Positions 11,640-52,998 of a DNA stretch of 64,000 nt are shown here, in pieces (position 1 is the first letter of the stretch; each line of letters starts with the position of its first letter). A program made the translations under genes and the position numbers. The notes beneath the pieces were generated by a model. That model had not been told where the DNA came from and made no database searches. It was given only the letters and a program-made list of their open reading frames with translations. The stretch is from Patescibacteria group bacterium (GTDB lineage: Bacteria > Patescibacteriota > Patescibacteriia > Buchananbacterales > GWA2-38-13). The DNA is taken from contig JAQTQO010000002.1 in NCBI GenBank assembly GCA_028712155.1, positions 11,851 through 75,850 of the forward strand, given 5' to 3'.

Positions 11640-13121
11640 TTACAATTTCGGGTCGCAGGAGAACTTCACCGCCTGCTCCAAATGATGACCGGCGCGTAAA
11701 ATCGTCTCTTCGTCAAAAGGTTTGCCAATCAGCTGCAGTCCCACCGGCAGTTTTACTCCGCCTTCGGGCGGTTCGGCCAGACCAACCGGTAACGAGAGGC
11801 CGGGCACTCCGGCGACATTGCCGGCGACGGTGTAGACATCAGCGAGGTACATGCTCAACGGATCATCTGCTTTGGCGCCGATCTTGAACGCGACAGTCGG
11901 CGACGTCGGTGTCACCAAGCAGTCAACTTTTTTGAACGCCTGTTCGAAATCTTGGCGCACCAGCGTCCGCACGGCCAGCGCTTTCTTGTAGTAGGCATCG
12001 TAGTACCCGGCCGACAGCGCGTAGGTGCCAAGCATAATGCGGCGACGGATTTCGGCGCCAAAGCCCGCACCGCGGGTTTCGGCATACTGCGCGATCAGCG
12101 TCGGCGCTTCCCGGCGGCTCAAACCGTAACGGATGCCGTCGTAGCGGGCGAGGTTGGCGGACAATTCGGCCGGCATGATCACGTAGTAGGCCGCCAAGGC
12201 GTAATCGGTATGCGGCAGGCTGATATCGGTCACGATTTTTGCCCCCAGGGTTTCCAGAATTTTCAGCGCGGCGGAAAAACTCTTCCGCACGCCGTCTTCC
12301 AGCCCCGCGGTGGAGTCGGAAAAATATTCTTTCGGAACGCCGATGCGTAAACCCTTGATGGATTTCCTGAGCGCGGCCGCATAGTCGGGTACCGGTTGCG
12401 GCGACGTGGTCGAATCCTTCGGGTCAAGGCCGGCGATCGCCCGCAACACAATAGCGGTATCCTCGACGGTCCGGGTGAACGGTCCGATCTGGTCGAGCGA
12501 CGACGCCATGGCCATCAGTCCGTACCGCGACACGCGGCCATACGTCGGTTTCAGCCCGACGATCCCGCACAGGCTGGCCGGCTGGCGGATCGAACCGCCG
12601 GTATCCGAGCCCATCGCGAAACACGACATGCCTGCGGCCACGGCCGCCGCCGAACCGCCGCTGGAACCGCCGGGAACTCGCGTCGCATCCCACGGATTTT
12701 TGGTCGGGCCGAACGCCGAATGCTCGGTCGAGGAACCGCAGGCGAACTCGTCCATATTCGACTTCCCGAGCAGTATCGAGTCCTGCTGCTTGAGTTTTTC
12801 AACCACGGTACCGTCGTACGTGGCCGTATAATTTTCCAAAATTTTAGAACCGGCGGTGGTTTTTGTTCCGGCCGCCAGAAAAATATCTTTCAGCACCATG
12901 GGAATGCCCGCGAGCGGATGCGCGAACTTTTTTCGGCGATCCAACTGATCCGCGTGCGCTAACGCATCGTCGCCATAGACTGCCAGCAGCGCGTGGAGAC
13001 GGCCGTTATCCTTTTGGATGCGATCCAAATACGCCTGCGTCAGCTCGCGGCAGGAAAACTTTTTTTGATCCAAACCGGCGCGCGCGGCCGTCAGGCTCGA
13101 TGGCGGCAGTGTGTTTGCCAT
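11640..13121 (-). CDS. gatA: Glutamyl-tRNA(Gln) amidotransferase subunit A
   Basis: 493 aa with the amidase signature GGSSGGSAAAVAAG. Start overlaps the gatC stop. Confidence 0.9.
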   Translation of the reverse strand: MANTLPPSSLTAARAGLDQKKFSCRELTQAYLDRIQKDNGRLHALLAVYGDDALAHADQLDRRKKFAHPLAGIPMVLKDIFLAAGTKTTAGSKILENYTATYDGTVVEKLKQQDSILLGKSNMDEFACGSSTEHSAFGPTKNPWDATRVPGGSSGGSAAAVAAGMSCFAMGSDTGGSIRQPASLCGIVGLKPTYGRVSRYGLMAMASSLDQIGPFTRTVEDTAIVLRAIAGLDPKDSTTSPQPVPDYAAALRKSIKGLRIGVPKEYFSDSTAGLEDGVRKSFSAALKILETLGAKIVTDISLPHTDYALAAYYVIMPAELSANLARYDGIRYGLSRREAPTLIAQYAETRGAGFGAEIRRRIMLGTYALSAGYYDAYYKKALAVRTLVRQDFEQAFKKVDCLVTPTSPTVAFKIGAKADDPLSMYLADVYTVAGNVAGVPGLSLPVGLAEPPEGGVKLPVGLQLIGKPFDEETILRAGHHLEQAVKFSCDPKL

Positions 13122-13122
13122 A

Positions 13123-13419
13123 CTAGGCGAATACCCCGGTGGTTTTCAGTAAATCACCTTCGCGTTCGGGCATTTCTTTCAGCAAGCGCTCGCGAGTTTC
13201 GGGCGGACACGCAGCCACAACATCGGCCCGCGCCACGTTCGACAGACCGCTGACCTGGGCGGTAACCGGAACGTCGCGGGTATCCAATTGCTGCAGTTTT
13301 CCGACGTACTCAAGAATTTTTTCCAGCTGGGCAGTGTAGCGGACGATCTCTTTCTCCGACAGAGACAGCCGCGCCAAATGCGCCACGTGTTCGACTTCTT
13401 TGCGGGTAATTTTAGCCAT
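13123..13419 (-). CDS. gatC: Glutamyl-tRNA(Gln) amidotransferase subunit C
   Basis: MAKITRKEVEHVAHLARLSLSEKE... is a typical GatC N-terminus. Start placed at the MAKIT Met rather than the tool start at 13452. Confidence 0.8.
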   Translation of the reverse strand: MAKITRKEVEHVAHLARLSLSEKEIVRYTAQLEKILEYVGKLQQLDTRDVPVTAQVSGLSNVARADVVAACPPETRERLLKEMPEREGDLLKTTGVFA

Positions 13420-13467
13420 AGGAATACCACGCCAGTGTAAATGAAAATGCACGGTCTGGCAAGCCCC

Positions 13468-15585
<2,118 letters not shown>

Positions 15586-15592
15586 TTACCTG

Positions 15593-16633
15593 CTACGGAC
15601 AGGTTTGATCACCGGCGACCAGCGGAGTTTTCTTGTTGATGCCGCACTCCGAGTACAGCACGTAATCAGCCAGGCCCGACGTCGGCGCACGGCCCGGCAG
15701 CAAAACCATTACCCGCTGCGTGGAAAAGAAATCCCGCGCTTCGCCGGTGAGCTTCAGGCGGGAAGATAACGCCATCGGCGTGCTCCCCCGGTACGCCCTC
15801 ACCCACGTAACGTTCACCGGCGCCCGTACGGCCCGCAGCTTCACCACGTAACTGCTCGACGGGTCGAGCGTGATGCTGAACGTCGACCCGCACGTGCGCG
15901 CTTGCTGCACCGGGGCTTGTGTATCCACCTGTGGCCCCCACCCCGATTGATTGGCAATCTGCCAATACGAGACGGCCAGCGACCCGAGCGAATATCCGGG
16001 AATACTGTCACACCGGATCCTCACATTGTCGACGCACGACGCCGTGCCAAGCGCGGTCGTTGCACCCCCGCCGCAATCGTGCAGCTCGTCCAAATCGATG
16101 ATATCCACCTGGGCCGACTGCTCCTGCAACAGCGGCATAAATTTCGGCTGGCCCTCGGTGACCCCGGTCGTGGGATATTCGGAAACGACGGAGCAGCCGC
16201 TCAGACTGTTGCTCACGCTGTATGACGTGTCGCTGGTGGGAGCATTCACGGTCAACCCCGTCTTGCACCCGCTGCTCATCCCTAGCTCAGCCGGCTGCAA
16301 TTCGAGCCGGCGCATTTTGAACAACGCCCGCTCCATCCCGCTCTCGGCGCGATAAAATTTTGTCAACGTGATGCTGCTGACCCCCGATATCCGAATCCCG
16401 GTAATGATCATGGCAGCCAAATTTATGGCAATGGCCAACGTCAGCGACGTGATCATCAATGTCAAAAGCAGCGTCGCTCCGCGCCGCGATCGCCCTAAAT
16501 ATCCAGGCCTAATTCGGTGAGCCGGAGAAATCATACATGTCATGCGACCAGCGTGTGTGGGAAATGAGCATCGTGCATCGGGGGCAATGACGGCGTACAT
16601 CTTCGATCTCCCGATTCCCAACTCATATTTCAC
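15593..16633 (-). CDS. Membrane-anchored protein of the pseudopilin operon (no canonical prepilin motif)
   Basis: 346 aa with an N-terminal TM helix (TLLLTLMITSLTLAIAINLAAMII). Start overlaps the upstream pseudopilin stop (ATGA coupling). Confidence 0.4.
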   Translation of the reverse strand: MKYELGIGRSKMYAVIAPDARCSFPTHAGRMTCMISPAHRIRPGYLGRSRRGATLLLTLMITSLTLAIAINLAAMIITGIRISGVSSITLTKFYRAESGMERALFKMRRLELQPAELGMSSGCKTGLTVNAPTSDTSYSVSNSLSGCSVVSEYPTTGVTEGQPKFMPLLQEQSAQVDIIDLDELHDCGGGATTALGTASCVDNVRIRCDSIPGYSLGSLAVSYWQIANQSGWGPQVDTQAPVQQARTCGSTFSITLDPSSSYVVKLRAVRAPVNVTWVRAYRGSTPMALSSRLKLTGEARDFFSTQRVMVLLPGRAPTSGLADYVLYSECGINKKTPLVAGDQTCP

Positions 16634-17574
16634 CGCTTATATACCCGCTGGGTGGCGGTGGTCTGAAACGTCATCCGGGTACCGGGGTTATTTGCATCCT
16701 GCACCGTGAAATAAAACGTCACCATCGGCTGGAAATTCTGCAGCTCGCATCTTCCGCCGGTGGTCGTGTTGCACTGCTTAGTGAAACACGCCGTCGCCTG
16801 GTTCGCCGCGGTACACTTACAGAACGTCCCGTTCGAGAACTCGGCGCCCGTGCCGCTGCCGCAGTCGGCATCGAGGTTTGGACCGGTGCCACTCCGGAAA
16901 TCCGTCGTCGGGTCAAAGATGTCCGGATAGGGGTTGGTGGAACTCGAAAAAAAGAAGCCGGCGCCGATAACCTGCACGCTGGACTCATTGGGAGTGCCGC
17001 TGGGGAAGTCGAACAAACGTTCGCAGGTGATAACCGTCTGGTCGTTCACCGTATCGTAGGATTGGTAGAAACGGAAAAAGCCCGGCGTATCGCCGGAATC
17101 ATCGGCGCACTTATGCGTACCGGATGGCCAAAAAGCATACGCAATGACCGTATCATTCGTCGGATCATTGTCCCCCAGGTTGTCGTACAGAACCAACTCG
17201 TTCTCCACCTGGTAAATATTCGACACGATGGTAGCGGGCTTGCCCGCATCCGAACCGTCCAGCGTATAGAGCGTCTCGGCAGGCGCGATACCGTCATAGT
17301 CCAGCGTGCCGTAGAAGGCCAGCTCATACGTCCGAATTTCACGGCTGATCTGATCCAGCAAAATGTTGGCCTCGGCAGTGATTTTCTGCCGCTGGACGCT
17401 GACCCGCTCCTGCCGCGTGCTGCTCAACCAAATATTGACGACCGTGATGACCACGATCGCGAACAAGCCGACCACCACCACCGTCTCCAGAAGGGTGAAC
17501 CCGCGCCGGTGGCCCCGATGACCGCGCCCAAGCGCATGCCACGGATGGTAATCCTGCCGGTTACTTCCAGGCAT
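16630..17574 (-). CDS. Prepilin-type N-terminal cleavage/methylation domain protein (minor pilin/pseudopilin)
   Basis: ...RRGFTLLETVVVVGLFAIVVITV contains the class III signal motif G|FTLLE. Confidence 0.6.
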   Translation of the reverse strand: MPGSNRQDYHPWHALGRGHRGHRRGFTLLETVVVVGLFAIVVITVVNIWLSSTRQERVSVQRQKITAEANILLDQISREIRTYELAFYGTLDYDGIAPAETLYTLDGSDAGKPATIVSNIYQVENELVLYDNLGDNDPTNDTVIAYAFWPSGTHKCADDSGDTPGFFRFYQSYDTVNDQTVITCERLFDFPSGTPNESSVQVIGAGFFFSSSTNPYPDIFDPTTDFRSGTGPNLDADCGSGTGAEFSNGTFCKCTAANQATACFTKQCNTTTGGRCELQNFQPMVTFYFTVQDANNPGTRMTFQTTATQRVYKR

Positions 17575-43288: not shown

Positions 43289-43825
43289 CTAGTGCAGACA
43301 CGTGGCGTAGATCCCGGTTTCGGTCGTGCAGTTAACACCGGCGATCAACGGTCCAGTCGCGCCGTCCGGATCGTTTTCCAGACGGAAATGGATGTTGTAA
43401 TTATTACAGTTGGCGGCACAGGTGCTGCCAGCAGTCATCGTGAAGTACGCGTAGTTGCACTTCGTAGTTGCTGACCCGCCCTGCGCACAGGCAACTCCTG
43501 CAGCGACATTATCCGGATCCCGTGGGGCTGAAGCGAGGTACAGCGGTGAAGCGCAACTCCCCTGAGTCGTCTTCCAGCCACTGGCCGAATCAAGACAGAA
43601 CAGCTGCGAACCAATTTCCGCTGACGCCGCGAGCGGGTAGTACTGTTTGTCGTTGAAGTAGAGCTCCAGTGCGGTCTGGACTTGCTTCATGTCCGAGGTG
43701 CGCTTGGAATCCCGCGCCTTCGACCGCGCCGAACTCAGCGCGACGATCGCGAGCGTCGACAGCAAGCCGATGATGGCAATGACCACCAACAGCTCGATGA
43801 GCGTAAACCCTTTTCGTGCTTTCAT
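43289..43825 (-). CDS. pilA: Type IV major pilin (PilA-like)
   Basis: ATG at 43825, preceded by the SD AAGGGGGTG. MKARKG|FTLIELLVVIAIIGLLSTLAIVAL is a classic type IVa prepilin leader and N-terminal helix. C-terminal Cys pair (C...TC). The tool ORF start at 43858 reads through the RBS. Confidence 0.85.
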   Translation of the reverse strand: MKARKGFTLIELLVVIAIIGLLSTLAIVALSSARSKARDSKRTSDMKQVQTALELYFNDKQYYPLAASAEIGSQLFCLDSASGWKTTQGSCASPLYLASAPRDPDNVAAGVACAQGGSATTKCNYAYFTMTAGSTCAANCNNYNIHFRLENDPDGATGPLIAGVNCTTETGIYATCLH

Positions 43826-43908
43826 TGTGTCACCCCCTTCCCGATTGTTTCCCTTCACTGTTCCACCTGGTATAAAAGGGAAACCGAAAAACCCTTCGAT
43901 TTAATTGA

Positions 43909-44171: not shown

Positions 44172-45377
44172 TCACACCGCTTCCGTAAGTTTATAGAGCG
44201 GCAAGATCACGGCAGCAACCATTAATCCGACGGCCACGGCCATGGTGGCAATCACCATAGGCTCAATCAGGCTGACGAGATTGCGCACCACGTTGTCAAT
44301 CTCACGGGTGTAAAAATCCGTCATTTTCTCCAGCACATGATCAATCCGCCCGGTCTTTTCGCCGACGTTGAGCATCTGCGACACCATGAACGGCACCACC
44401 GGACTGTGCAAAAATACCGAGGCAATGGGATTGCCGTCTTCCACTTCGCGGATGGTGGCTAAAATCACCTTGCGGTAAACTTCGTTGCCCACCACGTCGG
44501 CGGTGATCGCCAGCGCCTGCGGCAAGTTCACGCCGCCGACAATCAGCGTGTGCAGGCTCCGGCTGAAACGCACCAGGGCAATGCGCTGGTACAGCTTGCC
44601 GAACACCGGCACCCGCAGCTTCACGGTATCCCACGCCAGCCTTCCGGCGGGCGTCCGAAGCGAATAGTACCCGCCGACGGCAAGCCCGACGAGCGTGAGC
44701 AGCAAGAGCAGCCACCAGTGCTGTAAAATATCACTCGCAGTAATCAGAATTTTGGTCGAAAGCGGCAGCTCCACGCCGCTTTCGATGAGAATGTCGGTAA
44801 TTTTCGGGATCACATATACCATCATCAGCACGCCCACCACGACCAGGCCGGAGAGGATGAAAATCGGATAAATCATCGCACCTTTGATGCGGGAAGTCAG
44901 GTCGTAATCTTTCTCGAGCTGATTAGCCAGGTACTCGAGCACCTCGTCAAGCTTGCCGGAAGTTTCACCCGAACGGATGATGTTGACGTAAAAGCTGTCA
45001 AAAACACGCCGGTGCCGCCCGAGCGCCACGGACAGCTTGGTACCGGCTTCAACGTCATCGGCGATTTCCGAAACGGCCACCTTGAGGTGTTTGTTCGGCG
45101 TCTGGGCGATGAGGATGCGCAGCGACTGCACGAGCGGAACATTGGCGGATACCAAAACCGCCAGCTGGCGCGAGAATACGACCGTGTCGCGCACTTTGAT
45201 ATGCTTGAGGAACGAGAGGGAAACCCCGAGGATGCCCCCGGATACCGGATGGAGGTACAGGATGGTCAGCCCGCGCTCGCGGAGACTTTCGACGGCCAGG
45301 TCTTCGCTCGCCGCCTGCACCAATCCGGAAATGGTCGTATTCTCGCTGGTTCGCGCTTTGTAGGAAAATTCAGGCAC
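44172..45377 (-). CDS. pilC: Type IV pilus assembly platform protein PilC (GspF family)
   Basis: 401 aa with two GspF repeats and 3 TM segments. ...MPEFSYKARTSENTTISGLVQAASEDLAVESLRERGLTIL.... Confidence 0.85.
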   Translation of the reverse strand: MPEFSYKARTSENTTISGLVQAASEDLAVESLRERGLTILYLHPVSGGILGVSLSFLKHIKVRDTVVFSRQLAVLVSANVPLVQSLRILIAQTPNKHLKVAVSEIADDVEAGTKLSVALGRHRRVFDSFYVNIIRSGETSGKLDEVLEYLANQLEKDYDLTSRIKGAMIYPIFILSGLVVVGVLMMVYVIPKITDILIESGVELPLSTKILITASDILQHWWLLLLLTLVGLAVGGYYSLRTPAGRLAWDTVKLRVPVFGKLYQRIALVRFSRSLHTLIVGGVNLPQALAITADVVGNEVYRKVILATIREVEDGNPIASVFLHSPVVPFMVSQMLNVGEKTGRIDHVLEKMTDFYTREIDNVVRNLVSLIEPMVIATMAVAVGLMVAAVILPLYKLTEAV

Positions 45378-45453: not shown

Positions 45454-46533
45454 TTATCCGTATCCCCGGATCATCATCCGCAGATTCTCCGGATCAATCG
45501 CTTCCGCCAGCGCCGCCGCGCCGGAGATCGTACCGGCCTTCACCAGCGCCGACAACGACTGGTCGAGACTGACCATTCCTTCCTGCTGGGATGTCTGCAG
45601 CACTGACTGCAGCTGTGCCATGCGGCCGTCGCGGAACAACGACCGCGTCGCCGGCGTGGCCGTGAGCACCTCCAGCGCCGCCACCCGTCCGCCGGAGATC
45701 CGCGGGAGCAAGCGCTGGCAGACCACTGCTTCAAGGCATTCCGCCAGCTGCTCCTGGGCCAACCCCCGGTTCTCGCTCGGGTACACGGCGATCATCCGCT
45801 CGATCGCCTGCACGGCCGAAACGGCGTTCATGACCACGTAGACCAGCCGCCCGAACGCGGCCAGTTCGATGGCCGCACGCAGGGTGCCCGGCTCATCATT
45901 CTCGCCGACCAGGATCACCGTCACGTCCTCCTGGTTGCATTCCTCGAGCGCCTGCAGGAAACTCGGCACGTCCCGGCCGACTTCGCGCTGCACCACGATG
46001 CTTTTCGCGCTGGTGATCAAATACTCCACCGGCTGCTCAATCGTCAAAATATTCTCCGAGCGGGTTTCGTTCACCTGCTGCACGATCGCCGCCGCCGTCG
46101 TGCTGCGCCCGGAATTATAGGGACCGGACACGATGACCAAACCGCGGCGAATTTCCACCAAACGGGCAATGGCCTGAGGCAGGCCGAGCTGCTGTAGATT
46201 CGGCACGGTCGTGGGCACCAGCCGCAAGGTGAATGCCAATCCCCCCCGCTGGTAGTACGCCGTCACCCGCAGCCGGAGCTTGCCTTCGAACAGAAAGACG
46301 AAACGCACCAAGCGATGCCGCTCAAGCGCTTCCTGCTGCGCAGCGTCGAGCAGCTCGCCTTTGAGCTCTTCCAAAAAATCCTTGGTCAGCACCTCGGCGT
46401 CGGTCAGTTCGATCAAACCGGAATCCATGCGCAGCACCGGCAATCCGCCGGCGAGCAAGTGGATGTCCGAAGCCTGACGCTTGGACGCCATCCCGATAAT
46501 CTTCCCCAGCAAAAGGTGAATGGCCGTTTTCAT
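45454..46533 (-). CDS. PilT-like retraction ATPase homologue with degenerate catalytic motifs (likely pseudo-ATPase)
   Basis: PilT-like N-terminus (ASDIHLLAGGLPVLRMDSG). The Walker A motif is GPYNSGRST, with K replaced by R. The Asp box is TIEQPVEY, against canonical TIEDPIE. The Walker B region is VILVGENDE. The His box is RLVYVVMNAV, with both His lost. Start overlaps the upstream response-regulator gene. Confidence 0.7.
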   Translation of the reverse strand: MKTAIHLLLGKIIGMASKRQASDIHLLAGGLPVLRMDSGLIELTDAEVLTKDFLEELKGELLDAAQQEALERHRLVRFVFLFEGKLRLRVTAYYQRGGLAFTLRLVPTTVPNLQQLGLPQAIARLVEIRRGLVIVSGPYNSGRSTTAAAIVQQVNETRSENILTIEQPVEYLITSAKSIVVQREVGRDVPSFLQALEECNQEDVTVILVGENDEPGTLRAAIELAAFGRLVYVVMNAVSAVQAIERMIAVYPSENRGLAQEQLAECLEAVVCQRLLPRISGGRVAALEVLTATPATRSLFRDGRMAQLQSVLQTSQQEGMVSLDQSLSALVKAGTISGAAALAEAIDPENLRMMIRGYG

Positions 46534-46910
46534 ACCTTGATGACCGCCTTAATTTTTTTGACTACTTCCGACGGCATAAAATGCGCCTTGATCAGGTAGT
46601 CGGCCGCCCCAAGCTCCAATCCCCGCCGCACTTCGTCCCGCTGGCTCAAGTTGGTCAGTAAGATGACCGGGATGGCTTTACCCGCCGGGTCTTCGCGCAG
46701 TGTTTTGAGCACCTCAAAGCCGTCCATCTTGGGCAGAATGATATCCAGCAGCACCAGATCCGGGTGTTTCTCGCGCGCGAGTTTCAAACCTTTTTTGCCG
46801 TCGGCAGCCGTCACCACCTCAAACCCTTCAAGGTTGAGCTTGGTGGCATACAGTTCGGACAGAAACTCATCGTCTTCGACCAGGAGAATGACGGGTTTTG
46901 ACTTGGGCAT
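46530..46910 (-). CDS. Single-domain CheY-like response regulator (PilH/PilG-like)
   Basis: 126 aa. ...ILLVEDDEFLSELYATKL...DLVLLDIILPKMDGFEVLKTL... contains the receiver-domain residues (DD...D...K). It is embedded between pilB and the pilT-like gene. Confidence 0.8.
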   Translation of the reverse strand: MPKSKPVILLVEDDEFLSELYATKLNLEGFEVVTAADGKKGLKLAREKHPDLVLLDIILPKMDGFEVLKTLREDPAGKAIPVILLTNLSQRDEVRRGLELGAADYLIKAHFMPSEVVKKIKAVIKV

Positions 46911-46999: not shown

Positions 47000-48730
47000 T
47001 TACAGTTTCGTCACCCGATAGATCTCCTCCAACGTGGTTTTACCTTGCAGCACCTTCACCAGCCCGTCCTGCCGGAGGGTAATATACTCCTGCTTGCCAA
47101 GCTGGGTCTCAACGTCCTTGCCGCGGAATCCGGTCGTAATGAGCTCCTGCAGCTCCGGAGTGAACTCCACGACTTCCGCCACCGCGATCCGTCCGAGGTA
47201 ACCGGTGTTCCCGCACCGCGAGCATCCCTTACCCTTCCAGAACTGAAATTTCTCCCGCGACAGATCGGTCGGCCAGTGTTTGTTGGGGACCGCCGCAATT
47301 TCGGCCGCCAGGCCCTTTTCCATTACGGCCGGCATCTTCAAGGGTTCGCGGCAATGCTCGCAGATCCGCCGCGCCAGCCGCTGCGCCACGACCGCGTTGA
47401 CCGTCGAGGACAGCAGGAACGGTTCCACTCCCATATCCAGCAACCGCGGCACCGCGCCGATCGCATCATTGGTGTGCAGCGTCGAGAGTACCAGGTGGCC
47501 GGTGAGGCTGGCGTGCGTCACCAGCTCCGCCGATTCCTGGTCGCGGATCTCCCCCAACATGATAATGTTGGGATCCTGCCGCAGGATCGAGCGCAATCCC
47601 GAGGCGAACGAGTACCCCACGTCCGGATTGATCTGGGATTGGTTGATGCCTTCGACCGAGTACTCGACCGGATCCTCCAGGGTGATGATATTGACTCCCT
47701 CCTTGTTGAGCAGCGTCAGCACGGTGTAAAGCGTCGTGGTCTTGCCGGATCCCGTCGGGCCGGTCAGGAGCAGCAACCCGTGGGGCTTGGCAATACTGGC
47801 TACGATCGCCGCGATATGCGGCTCGGAAAATCCCAGGTCTTGCAGCGTCGGCACCTTGAAGCTGGCATCCAAAACGCGCATCACCACCTTTTCGCCTTCA
47901 AACAGCGGCAGGGTGGAGACGCGGAAATCCACGTCCCGCCCCTCGATCGTCAGGCGGATGCGGCCATCCTGAGGCTTGCGGGTTTCATCCAGCCGGAGAT
48001 TGGCGAGCACCTTGATCCGCGCGACGATCGCCGAATGGATGTAGCGCGGCAGATGCAGGCTGGTGCGCAGCATCCCGTCAATGCGGTAGCGGACCCGCGT
48101 TTCATGCGGCTCCGGCTCGATGTGGATATCGGAGGCGCGGCCGTCAATGGCGTGGCGAATGATCACCAGTACCATTTTGGAGACCGGCGCGGACCGGACG
48201 ACCTCCTGGAGGTCTTTGGGCATCACCCGCAGCTCTTCATCAACCTCTTTCTCCGTGACGCCGGCGAGCGCCTCCTCGGCTTCCTTATTGAGCTCGCCGT
48301 ACTGCCGGCTGACCTGCCGCAAGCCGCTCGCGGAGACAATATAGTAGCGGACCGTCAGGCTTCCCTCTTGCGCCAGGAAATCCACCGCTTCGATCGCCTT
48401 GAAATTCTGCGGGTCAACGAGAGCGACCTTGATTTCATTGCCGCGCCGCTCAAACGCAACCATCTGGTAATTCTCAGCGACCGTCGGGGGCAGCGTATTG
48501 AGTACGGCCGGCGGAATCGTCCGTCCGGCGAGATCAATGTAGGGCACGCCCAGCATTTCCCCCTTCACCTTGGTCAACGTCTCTTCGTCCACCCACCCTT
48601 CTTTCAGCATGGCGGATTCCACGCCGACAGGGTCCTCAGCGCCTTTGGCCCCCAGCTTGGTTGCCTGCTCGGCGGTGATCAATTTTCGCTCCACCAAGGC
48701 AGCGATGAGTTTTCCCGTTTCAACCGGCAT
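47000..48730 (-). CDS. pilB: Type IV pilus assembly ATPase PilB (GspE family)
   Basis: Intact Walker A GPTGSGKTTTLYT, Asp box TLEDPVEY, Walker B IIMLGEIRDQESA and His box GHLVLSTLHTNDA. Tetracysteine motif CEHC...CSRCGNTG. Confidence 0.9.
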   Translation of the reverse strand: MPVETGKLIAALVERKLITAEQATKLGAKGAEDPVGVESAMLKEGWVDEETLTKVKGEMLGVPYIDLAGRTIPPAVLNTLPPTVAENYQMVAFERRGNEIKVALVDPQNFKAIEAVDFLAQEGSLTVRYYIVSASGLRQVSRQYGELNKEAEEALAGVTEKEVDEELRVMPKDLQEVVRSAPVSKMVLVIIRHAIDGRASDIHIEPEPHETRVRYRIDGMLRTSLHLPRYIHSAIVARIKVLANLRLDETRKPQDGRIRLTIEGRDVDFRVSTLPLFEGEKVVMRVLDASFKVPTLQDLGFSEPHIAAIVASIAKPHGLLLLTGPTGSGKTTTLYTVLTLLNKEGVNIITLEDPVEYSVEGINQSQINPDVGYSFASGLRSILRQDPNIIMLGEIRDQESAELVTHASLTGHLVLSTLHTNDAIGAVPRLLDMGVEPFLLSSTVNAVVAQRLARRICEHCREPLKMPAVMEKGLAAEIAAVPNKHWPTDLSREKFQFWKGKGCSRCGNTGYLGRIAVAEVVEFTPELQELITTGFRGKDVETQLGKQEYITLRQDGLVKVLQGKTTLEEIYRVTKL

Positions 48731-48839: not shown

Positions 48840-49178
48840 TTATTCGGCGGGTGTCGTGGTTGCGCCGGCAAACGCAGGCGGAGCAAAGGGATTCTCTTTT
48901 CCGGTCGCACCGGCCAGCACGGGCAGCGTGACGAACGTCCGCAGTCCCGTGTACTGCGGGCTCGTGAACAGCGGGTGATCCCCCCGAAACTGCGGCACCG
49001 AGGGGTAGCGCAGCTGATTTTGGCGGCTGAATTCCTCACTCCATTGCTTTGGGACTTGCTGCCGGTCGACTTGCAGAAAATTACCCAGCACCACCCACCC
49101 CATCCACCCGAGCGCGCCAAAGAGCACCAGAGCGAGCACAATGAGCTTCATTGGATTAATGGGTTTCGGCGCAAGCAT
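48840..49178 (-). CDS. Small membrane protein in pilus operon (PilP-like?)
   Basis: 112 aa with a single N-terminal TM (LIVLALVLFGALGWMGWVVL) and a Pro-rich tail. No family recognised. Confidence 0.35.
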   Translation of the reverse strand: MLAPKPINPMKLIVLALVLFGALGWMGWVVLGNFLQVDRQQVPKQWSEEFSRQNQLRYPSVPQFRGDHPLFTSPQYTGLRTFVTLPVLAGATGKENPFAPPAFAGATTTPAE

Positions 49179-49299: not shown

Positions 49300-49920
49300 C
49301 TACCGGGGCATATAGTACGCCCGCAGCGTAATCTGGTACGGTCCCCCGTTGGCCGAGGCAAAATTCACGCTCTCCACATCCAGCAGCCGCATATTCGCCT
49401 CCAGGCTATCCAAAAACCCGTTGAGTTGGAAATAATCGCCGCCGCTCACAGAAGCGACGATCCCGACGCTCGCAATGGCGGAAATCTTTGGCACTGCCCC
49501 GACGACCTGCTCGGACGCAACGGTGGCGGGATTGTCCGTCTTATTTTCGGCGAACTGGACGTTGTGCAGGAGAAAACCGCTTTGCTTGGCAATCGCTTCC
49601 ATCTGCACGAACAGCCCGGGCAGATCGGGCTCGACGGGCAGGATCGCCGTAAATTTATCCATGGCCGAACGGTTAAATTGGCTGTACTTATCATTGAGCA
49701 GCTGCAGGTCGCGCAGGTGCCCGTCGAGGTAGTCGGCATCAGCCTTAATGGACTCAAGATTGTAATGCTCCTGGGTCAAAATCTGCTGGAATCCGGTCTG
49801 CAGGAACCAGAAGTATCCGACCGCGAGCACCGTAATAATGCTCCCGATGACCAGCTCCGGATAAAAGCGCGTGAACAAGCGCAGGAAGAAGAGGCGAATT
49901 TTTGAGCCGCTAATGATCAT
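49300..49920 (-). CDS. pilO: PilO-like pilus assembly protein
   Basis: 206 aa. N-terminal TM, then a coiled-coil and a periplasmic domain. Sits between pilN and pilB. Start overlaps the pilN stop. Confidence 0.5.
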   Translation of the reverse strand: MIISGSKIRLFFLRLFTRFYPELVIGSIITVLAVGYFWFLQTGFQQILTQEHYNLESIKADADYLDGHLRDLQLLNDKYSQFNRSAMDKFTAILPVEPDLPGLFVQMEAIAKQSGFLLHNVQFAENKTDNPATVASEQVVGAVPKISAIASVGIVASVSGGDYFQLNGFLDSLEANMRLLDVESVNFASANGGPYQITLRAYYMPR

Positions 49921-51767
49921 GGCTGTGCGGTCAAGGGCTTAAAGAATACTTCCGGGCGGAGCGTCAACGATACGGAGAAATTCACCCCGAGAACCTGATC
50001 CGACTCGACATCCACCACGGCCGTTGCGCCGGTAATGGATACCCCCGCGAACAGATCGGACGCCTGCCGGAATGCCACCAATTGCCGTGCGACGCTCGAA
50101 TAATCCTTGCCGTGGGCAGCCAGCTGGAGCTTACCGTCACTCGCGGAAGCGAACGAGGCGAAGTACACGTCGTCAATGGTGGTGCGCTCCAGCGCGTTGA
50201 ACACCTGCGTCCAGTAGTAGTGGTGGGACAGCAGATTTCCCATCGAATCGAGTTCCTGCTGCAGCGTCTGGCTGCGGGCGACGATTTCCTGGTACTGGTC
50301 GATCTGCTCCTGATACAGTTTGATCCGGTTGGCATAGACGGCAATCTCGTTGCCGATGCGGTACTGGTACCAACCGATAATCTGGCTGATCACCACGATC
50401 ACAAACGTGCTCAACCCGACGGCCACCAGATACAGGAGAAACTTCCGCGACAAATACAGTTCCGGATGCCGCGCGAATTCTTCCGGAATCAAGTTGATCG
50501 CGATGGTCTTGGGTGGACGATGCACGGCGTGGCCGGCGACCGGTTTCGGCGGTACCGGCGGGGGCGTTTCCGTTTTTCCGGTTGGCGGCCGCAGTGGTGG
50601 CGGTGGAGGCGGCGGAGGAGCTGACTTGAGCGGCGGGGGCGGCAGCGGCGCGGGTTTAGGCAAAGCCGGCTTCACTTCGGCAACCATTGGCTGCGGTTTT
50701 GGTGGCGGGGGCGGCAAGGGTAAAGTTGAATATTTGACCGCTGCCACCACCGGCTGCGGTTTTACCGGTGGAACTGGCAGGGAAGGTTGCGGGACTATCG
50801 GGGGTTTTGCCGGTTTCGGCTTGCGCCGAAACAATCCGAGCAGCCACTGCCAAAGAGATCGGCGGGGACGCCGCGGCATGGCCGGTTTTGGCGCGGGTTT
50901 CAGCGGAGTTTTCACCGCAACCACCACGGGCGGCAGCGGTTTTACCGGCGGGGACGGCAGGGGCACGGACGGTTTTGGCAGGGGCGGTTTTACCACCGGT
51001 TTCGGTTTGGACGCAAACCAGCTGGAAAGCCACTGCCAGAAACTCCGGCGGTGCGGCTTGGGTACCGGCAGCACCGGTTTTTGCGCCGTCTTGATTTCCA
51101 CCGTGACGGTCCGCGTGGGAAGCGGGCGCGGTGCCGGAGGGAGAACCGGTGCGGGCTTTTGCGGCATGACTTTCGGCGCAGGTTTCGGCGGACGGGAAAA
51201 CCAGCTCGCGAGCCACTGCCCGAAACTCCGCCGGTGGGGTTTAGGGTGAACGGCTGCCGCGCGCAGGGCCAACTGATCGCGCTCGACAGCATGCACCTCC
51301 CGCTTGACGATCTCCGCCAGCTTCGCGGCTTCGGCTGCTTCCAAATGGCGGCTGGGTGGCGCGGTGACCGGCGGCGGGGCGGGTACTTTCTCCGGTAATT
51401 TATGCGGCGGGGCCGGCGGTTGGCGCTTCGGTATCGGCACCGAAAGGCCGCCGAAAATTCCGTGCGGACGTACGATGCGAATACGTTCCGACGGCGGGGG
51501 CGGCGGGGCAACCGGCGCCGGCGGCAATGCCTCGGGTAACGGCGTGAGCGGACGTTTCTGCGGCTCCGGCCGGCCGGCTCCCGAGCCGCCATGCTGAAGT
51601 TTCGCCTCTTCCGGACGGGGAGGGTTGGTGAGCGTGTATTCCACCACCTTCGGCGTCTTGCTCAAACGCCGGCGCTCCGCGGCTTCCCGTCCGCGCAGTT
51701 CGTCCGGTAAAAGATTAACGTCGGCCATGGAAATTTTGCTTGATGGTCGTGGCAAGTAGCTGGGCAT
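49917..51767 (-). CDS. pilN: PilN-like protein with ~420-aa Pro-rich repetitive N-terminal insertion
   Basis: The PilM-binding-type motif occurs twice: MADVNLLPDELR at the N-terminus and IAINLIPEEF just before the TM helix (LLYLVAVGLSTFVIVVI). The C-terminal periplasmic domain is PilN-like. Between the two motifs lies PxxP/KPxP-rich low-complexity sequence with three ~61-aa repeats. Confidence 0.6.
   Translation of the reverse strand: MPSYLPRPSSKISMADVNLLPDELRGREAAERRRLSKTPKVVEYTLTNPPRPEEAKLQHGGSGAGRPEPQKRPLTPLPEALPPAPVAPPPPPSERIRIVRPHGIFGGLSVPIPKRQPPAPPHKLPEKVPAPPPVTAPPSRHLEAAEAAKLAEIVKREVHAVERDQLALRAAAVHPKPHRRSFGQWLASWFSRPPKPAPKVMPQKPAPVLPPAPRPLPTRTVTVEIKTAQKPVLPVPKPHRRSFWQWLSSWFASKPKPVVKPPLPKPSVPLPSPPVKPLPPVVVAVKTPLKPAPKPAMPRRPRRSLWQWLLGLFRRKPKPAKPPIVPQPSLPVPPVKPQPVVAAVKYSTLPLPPPPPKPQPMVAEVKPALPKPAPLPPPPLKSAPPPPPPPPLRPPTGKTETPPPVPPKPVAGHAVHRPPKTIAINLIPEEFARHPELYLSRKFLLYLVAVGLSTFVIVVISQIIGWYQYRIGNEIAVYANRIKLYQEQIDQYQEIVARSQTLQQELDSMGNLLSHHYYWTQVFNALERTTIDDVYFASFASASDGKLQLAAHGKDYSSVARQLVAFRQASDLFAGVSITGATAVVDVESDQVLGVNFSVSLTLRPEVFFKPLTAQP
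50810..51245 (-). repeat. Three tandem ~185-nt coding repeats inside pilN (encode HRRSFxQWLxSWF-KPKP units)
   Basis: DNA-level near-repeats: aaccagctNgNNagccactgccNgaaactccgNcggtg at ~50835, ~51011 and ~51195. Protein repeats: KPHRRSFGQWLASWFSRPPKP, KPHRRSFWQWLSSWFASKPKP and RPRRSLWQWLLGLFRRKPKP. Confidence 0.6.
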
Positions 51768-51807: not shown

Positions 51808-52998
51808 TTATGCGATTTCTTTCATACCTAACCCGATCGCCACGGAAAACCGCGGCCCGATTTCGTCCAGTGCGGGTTTCAACTCTTCGGGGTACACCAC
51901 CCGTGCCCACGGATCGCCCAAAAAGACGCGGGTTTGCAGCAGATTGGTGAGATATGCCGGAAGGTTGGAAAGCAGCGAAGAACCGCCGGTCAGCACCACC
52001 CGTTCGATCGGCGGACGGCCCTGGCTCTTGTAGAGGTTGAGGCTATAGCGAATCTCATCCACAATCGGAGCGATGGCTTGCGCCACGGTGGCCGGAATGC
52101 CGCCCCCCACTTCGGCCGAACCGGACGCCTGCAGCCCGATGTCATACTTGAGCTGTTCGGCCCGGTCAAGGTTGACGTTCAAGGCGCTCGCGATCGCTTT
52201 CGTGATCGTCAGCCCGCCGACGGAAATGCTCCGGTTGAGGTAGGGAATGCCGGCCTGCACGATCATAATGTTGGTGACCGTAAAATCGAGATCCACCAGC
52301 ATGACCGTGGCCGGGTCCACCCCGACCAGACTGCGGATGAGGGCGAACGCTTCCGTGTCCAGGGCCAAGAGCGTTATACCGGCTTCGCGGAACAGAGACA
52401 GGTAGCGCCGCACCAGCGCCTTCGGCGCGGCCGTCAGCAAAATCCGGGTGTTGTGCCCGGTCTTGTGCCGGACGATCTTCAACAGCCGCATCCCGTCGAA
52501 GGAAAGGCGGTCACGCTTTTCGCCCTCGGTTTTGGCCGGCTGATCCGCCGCTTCCGACGGATCCGGCGGCAGGACGTCCCAGTGCAGGTTCATTTCATCC
52601 ATCGGCAGCGGGATGACTTTTTTGGCCTCCCACCGCACGGCCGCGGCGAGTTCCTTGGCGGAGAGTACGGGCAGCGTGATGACCGACGAGAAGACGGAAA
52701 AAGCCGGCAACGCGGAGATCGCCACGCGGCTGGAAATTTTTGCCTTGCGGCAGGTCTCCCGCAACAGCGCCGCCGTCAATTTCAAATCCTCCGGGTTTTC
52801 ATCTTTGGCCTGGAAATCAAGCGGATGGTCGAAGTACCCGTACGTGGACAAACGCGGTCTGCCCTTGTCATTTTTCAGCTCAACCACCTTGATGCTGTGG
52901 TTATCTACGTCAATGCCAAGGTAGTTTGCGGCGGCGGAAAACATGGCCATGGTAAAAATTGGTTCAATTTTGATGGCGGACAAATAATTTTCCCTCAA
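51808..52998 (-). CDS. pilM: Type IV pilus assembly protein PilM (actin-like ATPase fold)
   Basis: ...MAMFSAAANYLGIDVDNHSIKVVELK... is a PilM N-terminus, followed by actin/FtsA-like domains. The true start is probably the internal Met at ~52950. Confidence 0.8.
   Translation of the reverse strand: MRENYLSAIKIEPIFTMAMFSAAANYLGIDVDNHSIKVVELKNDKGRPRLSTYGYFDHPLDFQAKDENPEDLKLTAALLRETCRKAKISSRVAISALPAFSVFSSVITLPVLSAKELAAAVRWEAKKVIPLPMDEMNLHWDVLPPDPSEAADQPAKTEGEKRDRLSFDGMRLLKIVRHKTGHNTRILLTAAPKALVRRYLSLFREAGITLLALDTEAFALIRSLVGVDPATVMLVDLDFTVTNIMIVQAGIPYLNRSISVGGLTITKAIASALNVNLDRAEQLKYDIGLQASGSAEVGGGIPATVAQAIAPIVDEIRYSLNLYKSQGRPPIERVVLTGGSSLLSNLPAYLTNLLQTRVFLGDPWARVVYPEELKPALDEIGPRFSVAIGLGMKEIA

What the first reader, a model, noticed from the sequence alone, without database searches (positions are those of the whole stretch)
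45454..46910. PilT-like gene with degenerate ATPase motifs, translationally coupled to a CheY-like response regulator
PilB upstream has intact Walker A/B, Asp and His boxes. The PilT homologue has the Walker A motif GPYNSGRST (Lys to Arg), an altered Asp box (TIEQPVEY) and no His-box histidines (RLVYVVMNAV). It is predicted to be catalytically dead. Its start overlaps the stop of a single-domain response regulator, the way PilG/PilH regulators are embedded with pilus ATPases. A pseudo-ATPase could act as a regulator-controlled brake or scaffold on the pilus motor rather than as a retraction motor. No active PilT is present in this window.
Basis: seen in the sequence. Interest (0 to 1): 0.5.

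Follow-up and report, generated by a model that had tools for sequence, protein, structure and literature searches.

The report
Dead pilus-retraction motor paired with regulator
In a large group of ultrasmall (CPR/Parcubacteria) bacteria, the gene that normally encodes the ATP-burning motor that pulls type IV pili back in has lost its catalytic residues yet is faithfully kept. It always sits directly behind a small phosphorylation-switch protein, so it probably now works as a signal-controlled regulatory part of the pilus machine rather than as a motor.

Summary
Its Walker A is GPYNSGRST (Lys->Arg), its Asp box is TIEQPVEY, the invariant Arg after Walker B is lost (VGENDE), and there are no His-box histidines. 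Its ATG overlaps the TGA of an intact single-domain response regulator (RR). PilB upstream is fully canonical.

This is not a one-off. The protein belongs to a monophyletic clade of at least 133 distinct sequences, with 138 matching stretches in species-representative genomes of the Parcubacteria group. All clade members lack the second His-box histidine (all but two lack both) and the Arg. 84% have Lys->Arg, and 58% have also lost the catalytic Glu. The N- and C-terminal regions stay about as constrained as in real PilTs.

All 82 loci with enough upstream sequence read PilB-RR-PilT*-PilC, and the RR phospho-site is invariant. Related Parcubacteria carry an orthologous RR next to a fully canonical PilT, so the RR probably came first and catalysis was lost later.

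Best reading: a conserved pseudo-ATPase and phospho-switch module that controls the pilus machine by binding rather than by ATP hydrolysis. The mechanism is inferred, and whether these genomes hold another active PilT is untested. I found no published description.

The parts
51808..52998 (-). pilM (actin-like T4P alignment protein), first gene of the operon
   Evidence: Pfam PilM_2 7.9e-36. Same position in all related loci.
49917..51767 (-). pilN-like gene (long, 616 aa)
   Evidence: Weak Pfam PilN match at the C-terminus. Positional equivalent in L001, L005 and L173.
49300..49920 (-). pilO-like gene
   Evidence: Weak Pfam PilO match. The position is conserved.
48840..49178 (-). Small conserved ORF (112 aa) between pilO and pilB, function unknown
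   Evidence: No Pfam hit. An ORF of 79-115 aa sits at this position in loci with either a degenerate or a canonical PilT.
47000..48730 (-). pilB, extension ATPase with all catalytic motifs intact
   Evidence: T2SSE 3e-128 plus MshEN. TIGR02538 531 bits. Motifs located. PilB motifs are intact in all 79 related loci.
46530..46910 (-). Single-domain response regulator (REC only, 126 aa) with an intact phospho-acceptor site
   Evidence: PF00072 92.4 bits. Equivalents of CheY D13, D57, T87, Y106 and K109 are conserved in 78-79 of 79 distinct orthologues.
46530..46533 (-). ATGA overlap: RR stop codon TGA within and after the PilT* start ATG (translational coupling)
   Evidence: Sequence read. A -4 overlap occurs in 9 loci. 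The RR to PilT* gap has a median of 7 nt and is <=20 nt in 62/75 loci.
45454..46533 (-). PilT* : full-length PilT-family protein with a degenerate catalytic site (pseudo-ATPase)
   Evidence: TIGR01420 313.4 bits against a cut-off of 319.1. PDB PilT hits at E~1e-70. AF2 pLDDT 93.5, TM 0.92 to PilT4-ATP. Member of a monophyletic degenerate clade.
46099..46125 (-). Variant Walker A GPYNSGRST (canonical GPTGSGKST): Lys143->Arg, Thr139->Tyr
   Evidence: In the clade: Arg 111/132, Lys 21/132, Phe/Tyr at position 139 in 123/132; both glycines and the Ser/Thr are invariant.
46021..46044 (-). Variant Asp box TIEQPVEY (canonical TIEDPIEY): Asp167->Gln, both Glu kept
   Evidence: In the clade Asp is kept in only 16/132, while E166 is kept in 130/132 and E170 in 132/132.
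45892..45927 (-). Walker B region DVTVILVGENDE (canonical DPDVILVGEMRD): Asp203 and Glu211 kept here, invariant Arg213->Asp
   Evidence: In the clade Glu211 is kept in 56/132 and Arg213 was not among the six commonest residues listed at that position, so at most a few of 132 keep it, against 137/137 in canonical PilTs. R206S at the equivalent position inactivates V. cholerae PilT (PMC6762196).
45820..45855 (-). Degenerate His box FGRLVYVVMNAV (canonical TGHLVFGTLHTN): both histidines lost
   Evidence: In the clade His229 is kept in 2/132 and His236 in 0/132, against 137/137 in canonical PilTs.
45628..45651 (-). AIRNLIRE-like motif ATRSLFRD (partly retained)
   Evidence: Canonical relatives have AV[RK]N[LI]IRE.
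44172..45377 (-). pilC, inner-membrane platform protein
   Evidence: T2SSF 2.6e-60. NF052607 PilC 331 bits.
43289..43858 (-). Pilin gene (N-terminal methylation motif)
   Evidence: PF07963 1.2e-08.

Best explanation
PilT* (45454-46533, -) is the positional orthologue of the type IV pilus retraction ATPase PilT. It has become a conserved pseudo-ATPase. It keeps the two-domain PilT fold, the glycine frame and Ser/Thr of the P-loop, the two Asp-box glutamates and an N-domain arginine, so nucleotide binding and hexamer or platform contacts may persist. It has lost the residues needed for hydrolysis. It is co-translated with a phosphorylatable single-domain response regulator. The two proteins form a fixed module between pilB and pilC across a whole Parcubacteria lineage.

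Most likely mechanism (inferred): the RR's phosphorylation state controls whether PilT* occupies the PilC/PilM platform in place of PilB. That would stop extension and either lock the pilus or permit slow, motor-independent retraction. A phospho-switch would thus replace ATP hydrolysis as the input that changes machine state.

Shown: motif loss, clade-wide conservation, fold, synteny, RR phospho-site integrity, and the evolutionary order (RR first, loss of catalysis later).

Inferred: absence of ATPase activity, binding partners, and the brake/clutch action.
For: The motif substitutions sit in a gapless alignment to solved PilTs. The clade is monophyletic: 133 degenerate sequences and no canonical sequence inside it in NJ trees of 272 and 352 sequences. 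There are 138 matching stretches in GTDB species representatives.

Catalytic positions that are >=90% conserved in 137 canonical PilTs are free to vary in the clade. These include Lys143, Asp167, Gly210, Glu211, Arg213, His229 and His236, 38 positions in all. Entropy over residues 211-240 is 2.26 versus 0.68 bits. Residues 1-120 and 301-359 are equally constrained, and 271-300 only modestly relaxed (1.64 versus 1.26 bits).

The AF2 model has pLDDT 93.5 and TM 0.92 to PilT4 bound to ATP. PilT* is the fastest-evolving of the four operon proteins in 70/70 loci, yet its ORF length of 350-368 aa is maintained.

PilB-RR-PilT*-PilC is present in 82/82 loci with >=376 nt of upstream sequence, and the median RR to PilT* gap is 7 nt. 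RR phospho-site residues are invariant.

Positional orthology with canonical PilT in Saccharibacteria and other Parcubacteria is clear: the operon is the same, and so is the downstream LigA-GatC-GatA block.

Orthologous RR plus canonical PilT occurs in L121, L122, L129, L142 and L173.

Precedents from the literature: a REC-only regulator, DrdR, binds PilB and PilT (PMC13507683); an ATPase-dead PilT K136A still functions as an adaptor (PMC6762196, PMC9815625); and pili can retract without a motor (abstracts listed).
Against: There is no biochemical evidence. In this particular protein Asp203 and the catalytic Glu211 are still present, and the P-loop frame GxxxxG[RK][ST] is intact, so weak or partner-stimulated hydrolysis cannot be excluded. 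A distance-correlation (mirror-tree) test on 66 loci shows RR distances tracking PilB (r=0.71; partial r=0.51) better than PilT* (r=0.61; partial r=0.07-0.29). This hints that the RR's direct partner could be PilB. No RR-PilT fusion protein was found that would support direct contact. No histidine kinase was found in the window or in four annotated related loci. Whether these genomes carry a second, active PilT could not be tested. The RR/PilT* association is a single ancestral event that has been retained, not many independent co-occurrences.
Confidence: 0.6

Rival explanations
1. PilT* is still a working, highly divergent retraction ATPase. Arg replaces the Walker A Lys, other residues take over catalysis, and the RR stimulates it as DrdR stimulates PilB and PilT.
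For: The window protein keeps Asp203, Glu211, Ser144/Thr145, Glu166, Glu170 and Arg87. 21/132 clade members keep the Walker A Lys, and 10 keep both Lys and Glu. The RR also accompanies active PilTs in sister lineages. DrdR enhances PilB and PilT ATPase activity.
Against: The catalytic Glu is replaced by Ser, Lys, Asp, Gly, Ala or Val in 58% of the clade. The second His-box histidine is absent in every member and both are absent in all but two, and Arg213 is not among the residues listed at its position. Equivalent single substitutions (K136A, E204A, R206S) inactivate V. cholerae PilT. The catalytic core shows relaxed constraint.
Confidence: 0.1
2. PilT* is an inert adaptor that recruits another active ATPase, such as a PilU-like or second PilT encoded elsewhere in the genome. 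This would parallel the way ATPase-dead V. cholerae PilT still supports PilU-driven retraction.
For: The PilT K136A + PilU precedent (PMC6762196, PMC9815625). PilT* keeps the N- and C-terminal surfaces. Only about 64 kb of the genome was inspected.
Against: No third T2SSE ATPase is present in the window or within +/-5 kb of PilT* in 80 genomes. PilT* occupies the single PilT slot of the CPR pilus operon.
Confidence: 0.15
3. The RR regulates PilB, or the PilB/platform interaction, and PilT* is only a structural subunit needed for machine assembly or stability. The two are neighbours but not partners.
For: RR distances correlate best with PilB. The RR lies between pilB and pilT*. PilT is needed to initiate MSHA pilus assembly in V. 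cholerae, although that role required retraction-motor ATPase activity.
Against: RR to PilT* spacing is tighter (median 7 nt, ATGA overlaps) than PilB to RR spacing (median 24 nt). The RR is absent from most loci where PilB directly abuts a canonical PilT. The correlation test is weak because pairwise distances are not independent and the RR is short.
Confidence: 0.13
4. PilT* is a decaying pseudogene or an assembly artefact with no function.
For: It is the fastest-evolving gene of the operon.
Against: Intact ORFs of constant length occur in 80+ independent genomes spanning 35-74% identity. The N- and C-terminal regions are about as constrained as in active PilTs. The fold prediction is confident. 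Coupling to neighbouring genes is tight.
Confidence: 0.02

Closest known systems
Canonical PilT retraction ATPase (e.g. Aquifex aeolicus 2EWV, P. aeruginosa 3JVU, G. metallireducens PilT4 6OJX; Saccharibacteria PilT of T4P locus 1)
   Same: Full-length homology (E~1e-70) and the same two-domain fold (TM 0.92). Same slot between pilB and pilC in the same CPR operon. Retained P-loop glycines, Asp-box glutamates, Walker B Asp and N-domain Arg.
   Different: Walker A Lys->Arg, Asp-box Asp->Gln, Arg213->Asp and both His-box histidines lost. Across the clade the catalytic Glu is also dispensable. It scores just below the TIGR01420 cut-off.
Parcubacteria PilB-RR-PilT(active)-PilC loci (L121, L122, L129, L142, L173; Paceibacterota/Azambacteria-type PilT)
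   Same: Orthologous RR (42-53% identity, same GA.xYL[IV]KA[HN][FY]TP.E signature) in the same position. Same operon and same downstream genes.
   Different: There the PilT has all catalytic motifs (GPSGQGKST, TIEDPIEY, DPDVIMVGEMRD, TGHLVFSTLHTN). I found no published description of this arrangement either.
Engineered ATPase-dead PilT (K136A/E204A) of Vibrio cholerae acting with PilU
   Same: A PilT that cannot hydrolyse ATP still has a biological role through binding, as an adaptor for PilU.
   Different: That is a laboratory mutant that depends on a second active motor. PilT* is a natural, ancient, clade-wide state with no PilU nearby.
REC-only regulators of pilus motors: DrdR (Xanthomonas), PilG/PilH (Pseudomonas), PixE/PixG-PilB1 (cyanobacteria; the last two from my own knowledge)
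   Same: A receiver domain without an output domain that acts on pilus motor ATPases by protein-protein contact.
   Different: The RR here is a single canonical REC encoded inside the pilus operon and coupled to a pseudo-ATPase. There is no Che-like cluster, no PATAN domain and no tandem REC.
Non-hydrolysing nucleotide-binding subunits of type IV filament machines: archaellum FlaH/ArlH, and TadZ/CpaE with its atypical receiver domain (own knowledge, not tested here)
   Same: The concept: an ATPase-fold protein that binds but does not turn over nucleotide and regulates or positions a PilB/PilT-superfamily motor. TadZ even combines a receiver-like domain with an inactive ATPase domain.
   Different: Those proteins have unrelated folds (KaiC/RecA-like, MinD/ParA-like) and are not derived from the PilT motor itself.

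Membership tests
PilT/PilU family type IVa pilus ATPase (TIGR01420) | Full-length match above the curated family cut-off | tested here: not met
   313.4 bits against a cut-off of 319.1, aligned over 340 of 343 profile positions. This is a marginal failure.
PilT/PilU family type IVa pilus ATPase (TIGR01420) | Two-domain PilT fold (N-terminal PAS-like domain plus RecA-like ATPase domain) | tested here: met
   AF2 pLDDT 93.5. Foldseek TM 0.92, rmsd 1.9 A to PilT4-ATP 6OJX.
PilT/PilU family type IVa pilus ATPase (TIGR01420) | Walker A GxxxxGK[ST] with the catalytic lysine | tested here: not met
   GPYNSGRST. Lys->Arg in 111/132 clade members, against Lys in 137/137 canonical sequences.
PilT/PilU family type IVa pilus ATPase (TIGR01420) | Asp box acidic residues (TIEDPIEY) | tested here: inconclusive
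   Both Glu residues are kept, and Asp167->Gln.
PilT/PilU family type IVa pilus ATPase (TIGR01420) | Atypical Walker B Dh4GE with catalytic Glu, followed by the invariant Arg (GEMRD) | tested here: not met
   Asp203 and Glu211 are present in this protein, but Arg213->Asp. Glu is kept in only 56/132 clade members, and Arg is not among the six commonest residues listed at position 213.
PilT/PilU family type IVa pilus ATPase (TIGR01420) | His box with two histidines | tested here: not met
   FGRLVYVVMNAV. His229 is kept in 2/132 and His236 in 0/132 clade members.
PilT/PilU family type IVa pilus ATPase (TIGR01420) | AIRNLIRE motif | tested here: inconclusive
   ATRSLFRD, 4 of 8 positions identical.
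PilT/PilU family type IVa pilus ATPase (TIGR01420) | Gene located with pilB and pilC in a T4aP operon (positional orthology with PilT) | tested here: met
   Same slot as canonical PilT in L007, L090, L091, L172 and L173.
PilT/PilU family type IVa pilus ATPase (TIGR01420) | ATP hydrolysis and pilus retraction activity | not testable with these tools
   Requires biochemistry or genetics.
Response regulator receiver domain (PF00072), stand-alone CheY-like | REC domain above the cut-off with no output domain | tested here: met
   92.4 bits against a cut-off of 30.2. The protein is 126 aa and matches profile positions 1-110 of 111.
Response regulator receiver domain (PF00072), stand-alone CheY-like | Phospho-acceptor Asp, acidic pocket, and Thr/Ser, Tyr/Phe and Lys switch residues | tested here: met
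   E12, D13, D56, T86, Y105 and K108 in the window protein. These are conserved in 78-79 of 79 orthologues.
Response regulator receiver domain (PF00072), stand-alone CheY-like | Cognate histidine kinase encoded nearby | tested here: not met
   No HisKA/HATPase_c in about 50 window ORFs or in L001, L003, L004 and L005.
PilG/PilH (Chp chemosensory CheY-like pilus regulators) | Encoded in a che-like cluster with CheA/ChpA, CheW/PilI and MCP/PilJ | tested here: not met
   No such genes in the window or in related loci.
PilG/PilH (Chp chemosensory CheY-like pilus regulators) | Closest sequence relatives are PilG/PilH | tested here: inconclusive
   The best NCBIfam and PDB matches are the receiver domains of PleD, PhoB/PhoP, RpaA/B and MtrA. 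No PilG/PilH-specific model was available.
Pseudoenzyme (pseudo-ATPase derived from an active motor) | Clear homology to an active enzyme family, with catalytic residues missing | tested here: met
Pseudoenzyme (pseudo-ATPase derived from an active motor) | Maintained by selection despite loss of catalysis | tested here: met
   Intact ORFs of constant length occur across at least 133 distinct sequences. The N- and C-terminal regions are about as constrained as in canonical PilT, and the relaxation is confined to the catalytic core.
Pseudoenzyme (pseudo-ATPase derived from an active motor) | Demonstrated non-catalytic function | not testable with these tools
   Requires experiments.

The most novel reading that the evidence does not exclude
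Across a major Parcubacteria lineage the pilus retraction motor has been replaced by a phosphorylation-gated pseudo-motor. The RR~P/PilT* pair would act as a clutch that displaces PilB from the platform, and these organisms would have no ATP-powered retraction at all. Their pili would then either retract passively or be locked on host contact. If so, 'pilT' annotations and the inferences of twitching or forceful retraction drawn from them are wrong for this lineage.
Probability: 0.3. Interest if true: 0.8.

Novelty: new variant of a known kind. Interest (0 to 1): 0.62.

Why it matters
Type IV pili are regarded as central to how CPR/Patescibacteria attach to hosts and take up DNA. Genome papers routinely read a 'pilT' gene as evidence for twitching or retraction (for example PMC5220378; PMC11623550 reports conserved Walker boxes for Saccharibacteria). 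Here a whole lineage, with at least 138 matching stretches in species-representative genomes, carries a PilT that almost certainly cannot hydrolyse ATP.

This gives a natural three-step series: PilB-PilT, then PilB-RR-PilT, then PilB-RR-PilT*. The series can be used to ask what PilT does apart from burning ATP, how a receiver domain talks to pilus motors, and how a motor evolves into a regulator. It also flags an annotation pitfall, and it identifies a previously unremarked response regulator embedded in Parcubacteria pilus operons.

Tried and rejected
(1) I looked for REC-PilT fusion proteins as 'Rosetta stone' evidence of direct contact. The long PilT-like representatives turned out to be MshEN-PilT, tandem PilT-PilT or PATAN-PilT-PilT, and none carried a REC domain.

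(2) A mirror-tree (distance-correlation) test for RR-PilT* co-evolution on 66 loci did not single out PilT*. RR distances track PilB slightly better. I treat the test as weak and inconclusive.

(3) I searched for a cognate histidine kinase by regex and by Pfam on about 50 window ORFs, and in the annotated flanks of four related loci. None was found.

(4) I searched for a second, canonical PilT. There is none in the window or within +/-5 kb of PilT* in 80 genomes. A genome-wide test was impossible because the collection scans and contig look-ups were exhausted.

(5) Six full-text literature searches for a described pseudo-PilT, or for an RR in CPR pilus operons, found nothing. All four Geobacter PilT paralogues keep all motifs.

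(6) Pseudogene or sequencing artefact: rejected on the comparative evidence.

(7) An Rfam scan and a tRNA scan of the window found nothing.

Full report
**1. What is at the coordinates**

The minus strand of window 43.3-53.0 kb carries a type IV pilus operon. Its gene order is:
- pilM (51808-52998)
- a long pilN-like gene (49917-51767)
- a pilO-like gene (49300-49920)
- a small unassigned ORF (48840-49178)
- pilB (47000-48730)
- a 126-aa response regulator (46530-46910)
- the PilT-like gene (45454-46533)
- pilC (44172-45377)
- a pilin gene (43289-43858)

The RR stop and the PilT-like start share the tetranucleotide ATGA.

The PilT-like protein matches the PilT/PilU family model over its whole length, at 313.4 bits against a curated cut-off of 319.1. 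It aligns without gaps in the motif regions to solved PilTs at E~1e-70. Against canonical PilT it reads:
- Walker A: GPYNSGRST, canonical GPTGSGKST
- Asp box: TIEQPVEY, canonical TIEDPIEY
- Walker B region: VGENDE, canonical VGEMRD
- His box: FGRLVYVVMNAV, canonical TGHLVFGTLHTN

Motif coordinates were verified. PilB has all four motifs and its zinc-binding cysteines. tblastn finds no other T2SSE ATPase in the window.

**2. It is a family, not an accident**

The window protein is identical to a GenBank protein from a 'Patescibacteria group bacterium' MAG. Homologues at 74-35% identity share the substitutions.

A scan of one genome per GTDB species found 138 stretches encoding relatives. The 80 loci fetched come from Parcubacteria-group MAGs (Buchananbacteria, Komeilibacteria, Kerfeldbacteria, 'Patescibacteria group'). 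Many are TPA assemblies titled 'uncultured Gammaproteobacteria', which is probably a mislabel.

I counted motifs in 132 distinct clade sequences and 137 canonical PilTs:

| Position (window numbering) | PilT* clade | Canonical PilT |
|---|---|---|
| P-loop Gly137, Gly142 | invariant | invariant |
| Ser/Thr144 | invariant | invariant |
| Lys143 | Arg in 111, Lys in 21 | Lys in 137 |
| Thr139 | Phe or Tyr in 123 | Thr in 130 |
| Asp167 (Asp box) | kept in 16 | Asp in 127 |
| Glu166, Glu170 (Asp box) | 130 and 132 | 137 and 137 |
| Asp203 (Walker B) | 125 | 135 |
| Glu211 (catalytic) | kept in 56 | 137 |
| Arg213 | not among the six commonest residues listed | 137 |
| His229 | kept in 2 | 137 |
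| His236 | kept in 0 | 137 |

Substitution of the residue equivalent to Arg213 (R206S), or of K136 or E204, inactivates V. cholerae PilT (PMC6762196 and PMC9815625).

In neighbour-joining trees of 272 and then 352 PilT-family sequences, all degenerate sequences form one clade with no canonical member inside it.

**3. Signature of a pseudoenzyme under selection**

Thirty-eight positions that are >=90% conserved in canonical PilTs are relaxed in the clade. Column entropy over residues 211-240 is 2.26 bits against 0.68. Residues 1-120 and 301-359 are as constrained as in canonical PilTs, and 271-300 is only modestly relaxed at 1.64 against 1.26 bits.

PilT* is the least conserved of PilB, RR, PilT* and PilC in 70 of 70 complete loci. 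Median identities to the window proteins are 40% for PilT*, 51% for PilB, 59% for RR and 50% for PilC. In a Saccharibacteria locus the canonical PilT is the best conserved of the three.

The ORF nevertheless stays intact at 350-368 aa in every genome. AlphaFold2 models it at pLDDT 93.5. The closest solved structure is ATP-bound PilT4, at TM 0.92 and rmsd 1.9 A.

The residues that remain invariant are the ones that hold Mg-nucleotide: the P-loop frame, the Walker A Ser/Thr, the Walker B Asp, the Asp-box glutamates and Arg87. I therefore infer that nucleotide binding may survive while hydrolysis does not. That is an inference, not a result.

**4. The response regulator**

In every locus with at least 376 nt upstream of PilT* (82 of 82, counting L001-L006), tblastn and ORF extraction show PilB-RR-PilT*-PilC. 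The six loci without an RR all end within 201 nt of the PilT* start. The RR to PilT* spacing has a median of 7 nt, with nine ATGA-type overlaps. The PilB to RR spacing has a median of 24 nt.

Across 79 distinct RR orthologues, the equivalents of CheY D13, D57, T87, Y106 and K109 are present in 78-79. A signature GA.DYLIKAHFxPSEV is conserved. The RR is a generic canonical receiver, with its closest matches in PleD, PhoB/PhoP and RpaA/B. It has no output domain.

No histidine kinase, Che-like gene or prepilin peptidase is present among about 50 window ORFs, nor in the annotated flanks of four related loci. PilB keeps all catalytic motifs in all 79 related loci.

**5. Controls and evolutionary order**

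Canonical CPR loci have the same operon without an RR. These are Saccharibacteria L007 and two further canonical loci, L090 and L091, from metagenome assemblies without organism names, and Magasanikbacteria L172.

A metagenome scan with canonical CPR PilTs returned 80 loci. Where PilB lies directly upstream, the PilB to PilT gap is mostly 15-200 nt with no RR.

Four loci are different. L121 (on a 649-kb contig), L122, L129 and L142 carry an RR between PilB and PilT. So does L173 from GCA_003056085.1. That RR is 42-53% identical to the window RR and has the same signature. Their PilT is fully canonical: GPSGQGKST, TIEDPIEY, DPDVIMVGEMRD, TGHLVFSTLHTN.

The 120 nearest homologues of that PilT are all canonical. 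They carry names such as Paceibacterota, Azambacteria, Parcubacteria and Magasanikbacteria. In the NJ tree this group lies in the first split above the PilT* clade.

The most parsimonious series is PilB-PilT-PilC, then PilB-RR-PilT(active)-PilC, then PilB-RR-PilT*(dead)-PilC. The least diverged PilT* sequences (L019, L023, L027, L030, L033) still have the Walker A Lys. Some of them also keep Glu211. All have already lost both histidines. The trees are unbootstrapped NJ trees, so this order is an inference.

**6. Mechanism**

Shown:
- a conserved, folded PilT-derived protein that lacks the catalytic residues;
- fixed, translationally coupled pairing with a phosphorylatable REC protein inside the pilus operon;
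- positional orthology with the retraction ATPase.

Inferred:
- PilT* still hexamerises and docks on the PilC/PilM platform;
- RR phosphorylation controls that docking, or the exchange with PilB;
- occupancy by an inert PilT* stops extension and either locks the pilus or permits slow motor-independent retraction.

Literature precedents make each step plausible. REC-only DrdR binds PilB and PilT (PMC13507683). ATPase-dead PilT retains an adaptor role. Pili can retract without a dedicated motor (abstracts listed).

Several things count against certainty. There is no biochemistry. The window protein still has Asp203 and Glu211. The mirror-tree test favours PilB slightly over PilT* as the RR's co-evolving partner. 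No REC-PilT fusion was found. I could not test whether these genomes hold a second, active PilT.

**7. Comparison with what is known**

By descent the protein belongs to the PilT lineage, but it fails the family's catalytic definition: Walker A Lys, His box, the Arg after Walker B, and marginally the HMM cut-off. I therefore file it as a PilT-derived pseudo-ATPase and not as a PilT. The RR is a bona fide stand-alone receiver, but it is not demonstrably a PilG/PilH.

Six full-text searches found no description of a naturally degenerate PilT clade or of an RR embedded in CPR pilus operons. The Saccharibacteria pilus paper reports conserved Walker boxes there. A Parcubacteria genome paper takes pilT as conferring twitching. 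All four Geobacter PilT paralogues keep their motifs.

Functional analogues from my own knowledge are FlaH/ArlH and TadZ/CpaE, which are non-hydrolysing subunits of related machines. They have unrelated folds.

**8. Verdict**

This is a new variant of a known kind: a pseudoenzyme derived from the pilus retraction motor, fixed in a module with a response regulator. It is distributed across a large uncultivated lineage. The interest is moderate to high, because it changes how 'pilT' should be read in Parcubacteria and offers a natural system for separating PilT's binding roles from its motor role. The specific mechanism remains to be tested.

Noticed in passing
window:190-2355 (+), within the low-GC segment 1-2400: The first 2 kb has 37% GC against about 58% elsewhere. 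It encodes a 721-aa protein with DndB (DNA-sulfur-modification-associated) and Swt1-like HEPN domains. It looks like a horizontally acquired defence-type gene.
   Followed up: partly
window:41311-43194 (+): A Wzy_C/O-antigen-ligase-like protein with C-terminal TPR repeats lies convergent to the pilin gene, and the same arrangement is conserved in L001. It resembles the PglL/TfpO pilin O-oligosaccharyltransferase arrangement, so it is a candidate pilin glycosylase.
   Followed up: partly
window:19713-41225: A large glycan-synthesis cluster separates the pilus operon from the minor-pilin/LigA block. It includes a fused ATP sulfurylase/APS kinase, a sulfotransferase-methyltransferase, an ABC-2 permease, many GT2, GT4 and GT11 glycosyltransferases, a WsaF-like rhamnosyltransferase, two Bac_transf priming transferases and a flippase. 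This suggests a sulfated surface or pilin glycan.
   Followed up: partly
window:55036-63891 (-): A 2951-aa protein with NosD and right-handed beta-helix repeats lies two genes upstream of pilM. A 2840-aa equivalent sits at the same place in L001. It may be a giant surface adhesin linked to the pilus locus.
   Followed up: no
window:15593-19046 (-), next to ligA (13468-15585), gatC (13123-13452) and gatA (11640-13121): This is a second block of pilin-like genes, with an N_methyl motif in 16630-17574 and neighbours that have no Pfam hit. In L005, L172 and L173 the minor pilins, PilD and LigA-GatC-GatA directly follow the pilus operon. In the window they are about 25 kb away, and no prepilin peptidase was detected.
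   Followed up: partly
proteins P0121-P0127, P0130, P0138: These are tandem PilT-PilT fusion proteins of 700-1000 aa with two T2SSE domains. P0121 also carries an N-terminal DUF4388/PATAN domain, which is the domain found in cyanobacterial PatA-type pilus regulators.
   Followed up: partly
L121, L122, L129, L142, L173 and proteins P0268-P0387: Canonical Parcubacteria PilTs have an unusual but Lys-containing Walker A, GPSGQGKST, GPSGHGKST or GPAGHGKST, with Gln or His where most PilTs have Ser. Some of these loci carry the same operon-embedded RR as the window.
   Followed up: partly
L003 / L011: 9105-9458 in L003: In one 61%-identical relative, a gene for a 23S-rRNA-intervening-sequence protein (PF05635) is inserted between PilT* and pilC.
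   Followed up: no
L011, L013-L015, L022, L023 and many others: Many species-representative MAGs that carry this typical CPR pilus locus are titled 'uncultured Gammaproteobacteria bacterium'. This is almost certainly a default or mistaken organism label.
   Followed up: no
window:48840-49178 (-): A small ORF (79-115 aa) without any Pfam match is conserved between pilO and pilB in all CPR pilus operons examined, whether the PilT is degenerate or canonical.
   Followed up: no
window:4081-5432 (+): An encapsulated-ferritin-like (EncFtn) gene is followed by a radical-SAM protein. Nearby are a P-type cation ATPase and a CDF transporter with triplicated ZT_dimer domains. This looks like a metal-handling cluster and is unrelated to the finding.
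   Followed up: no
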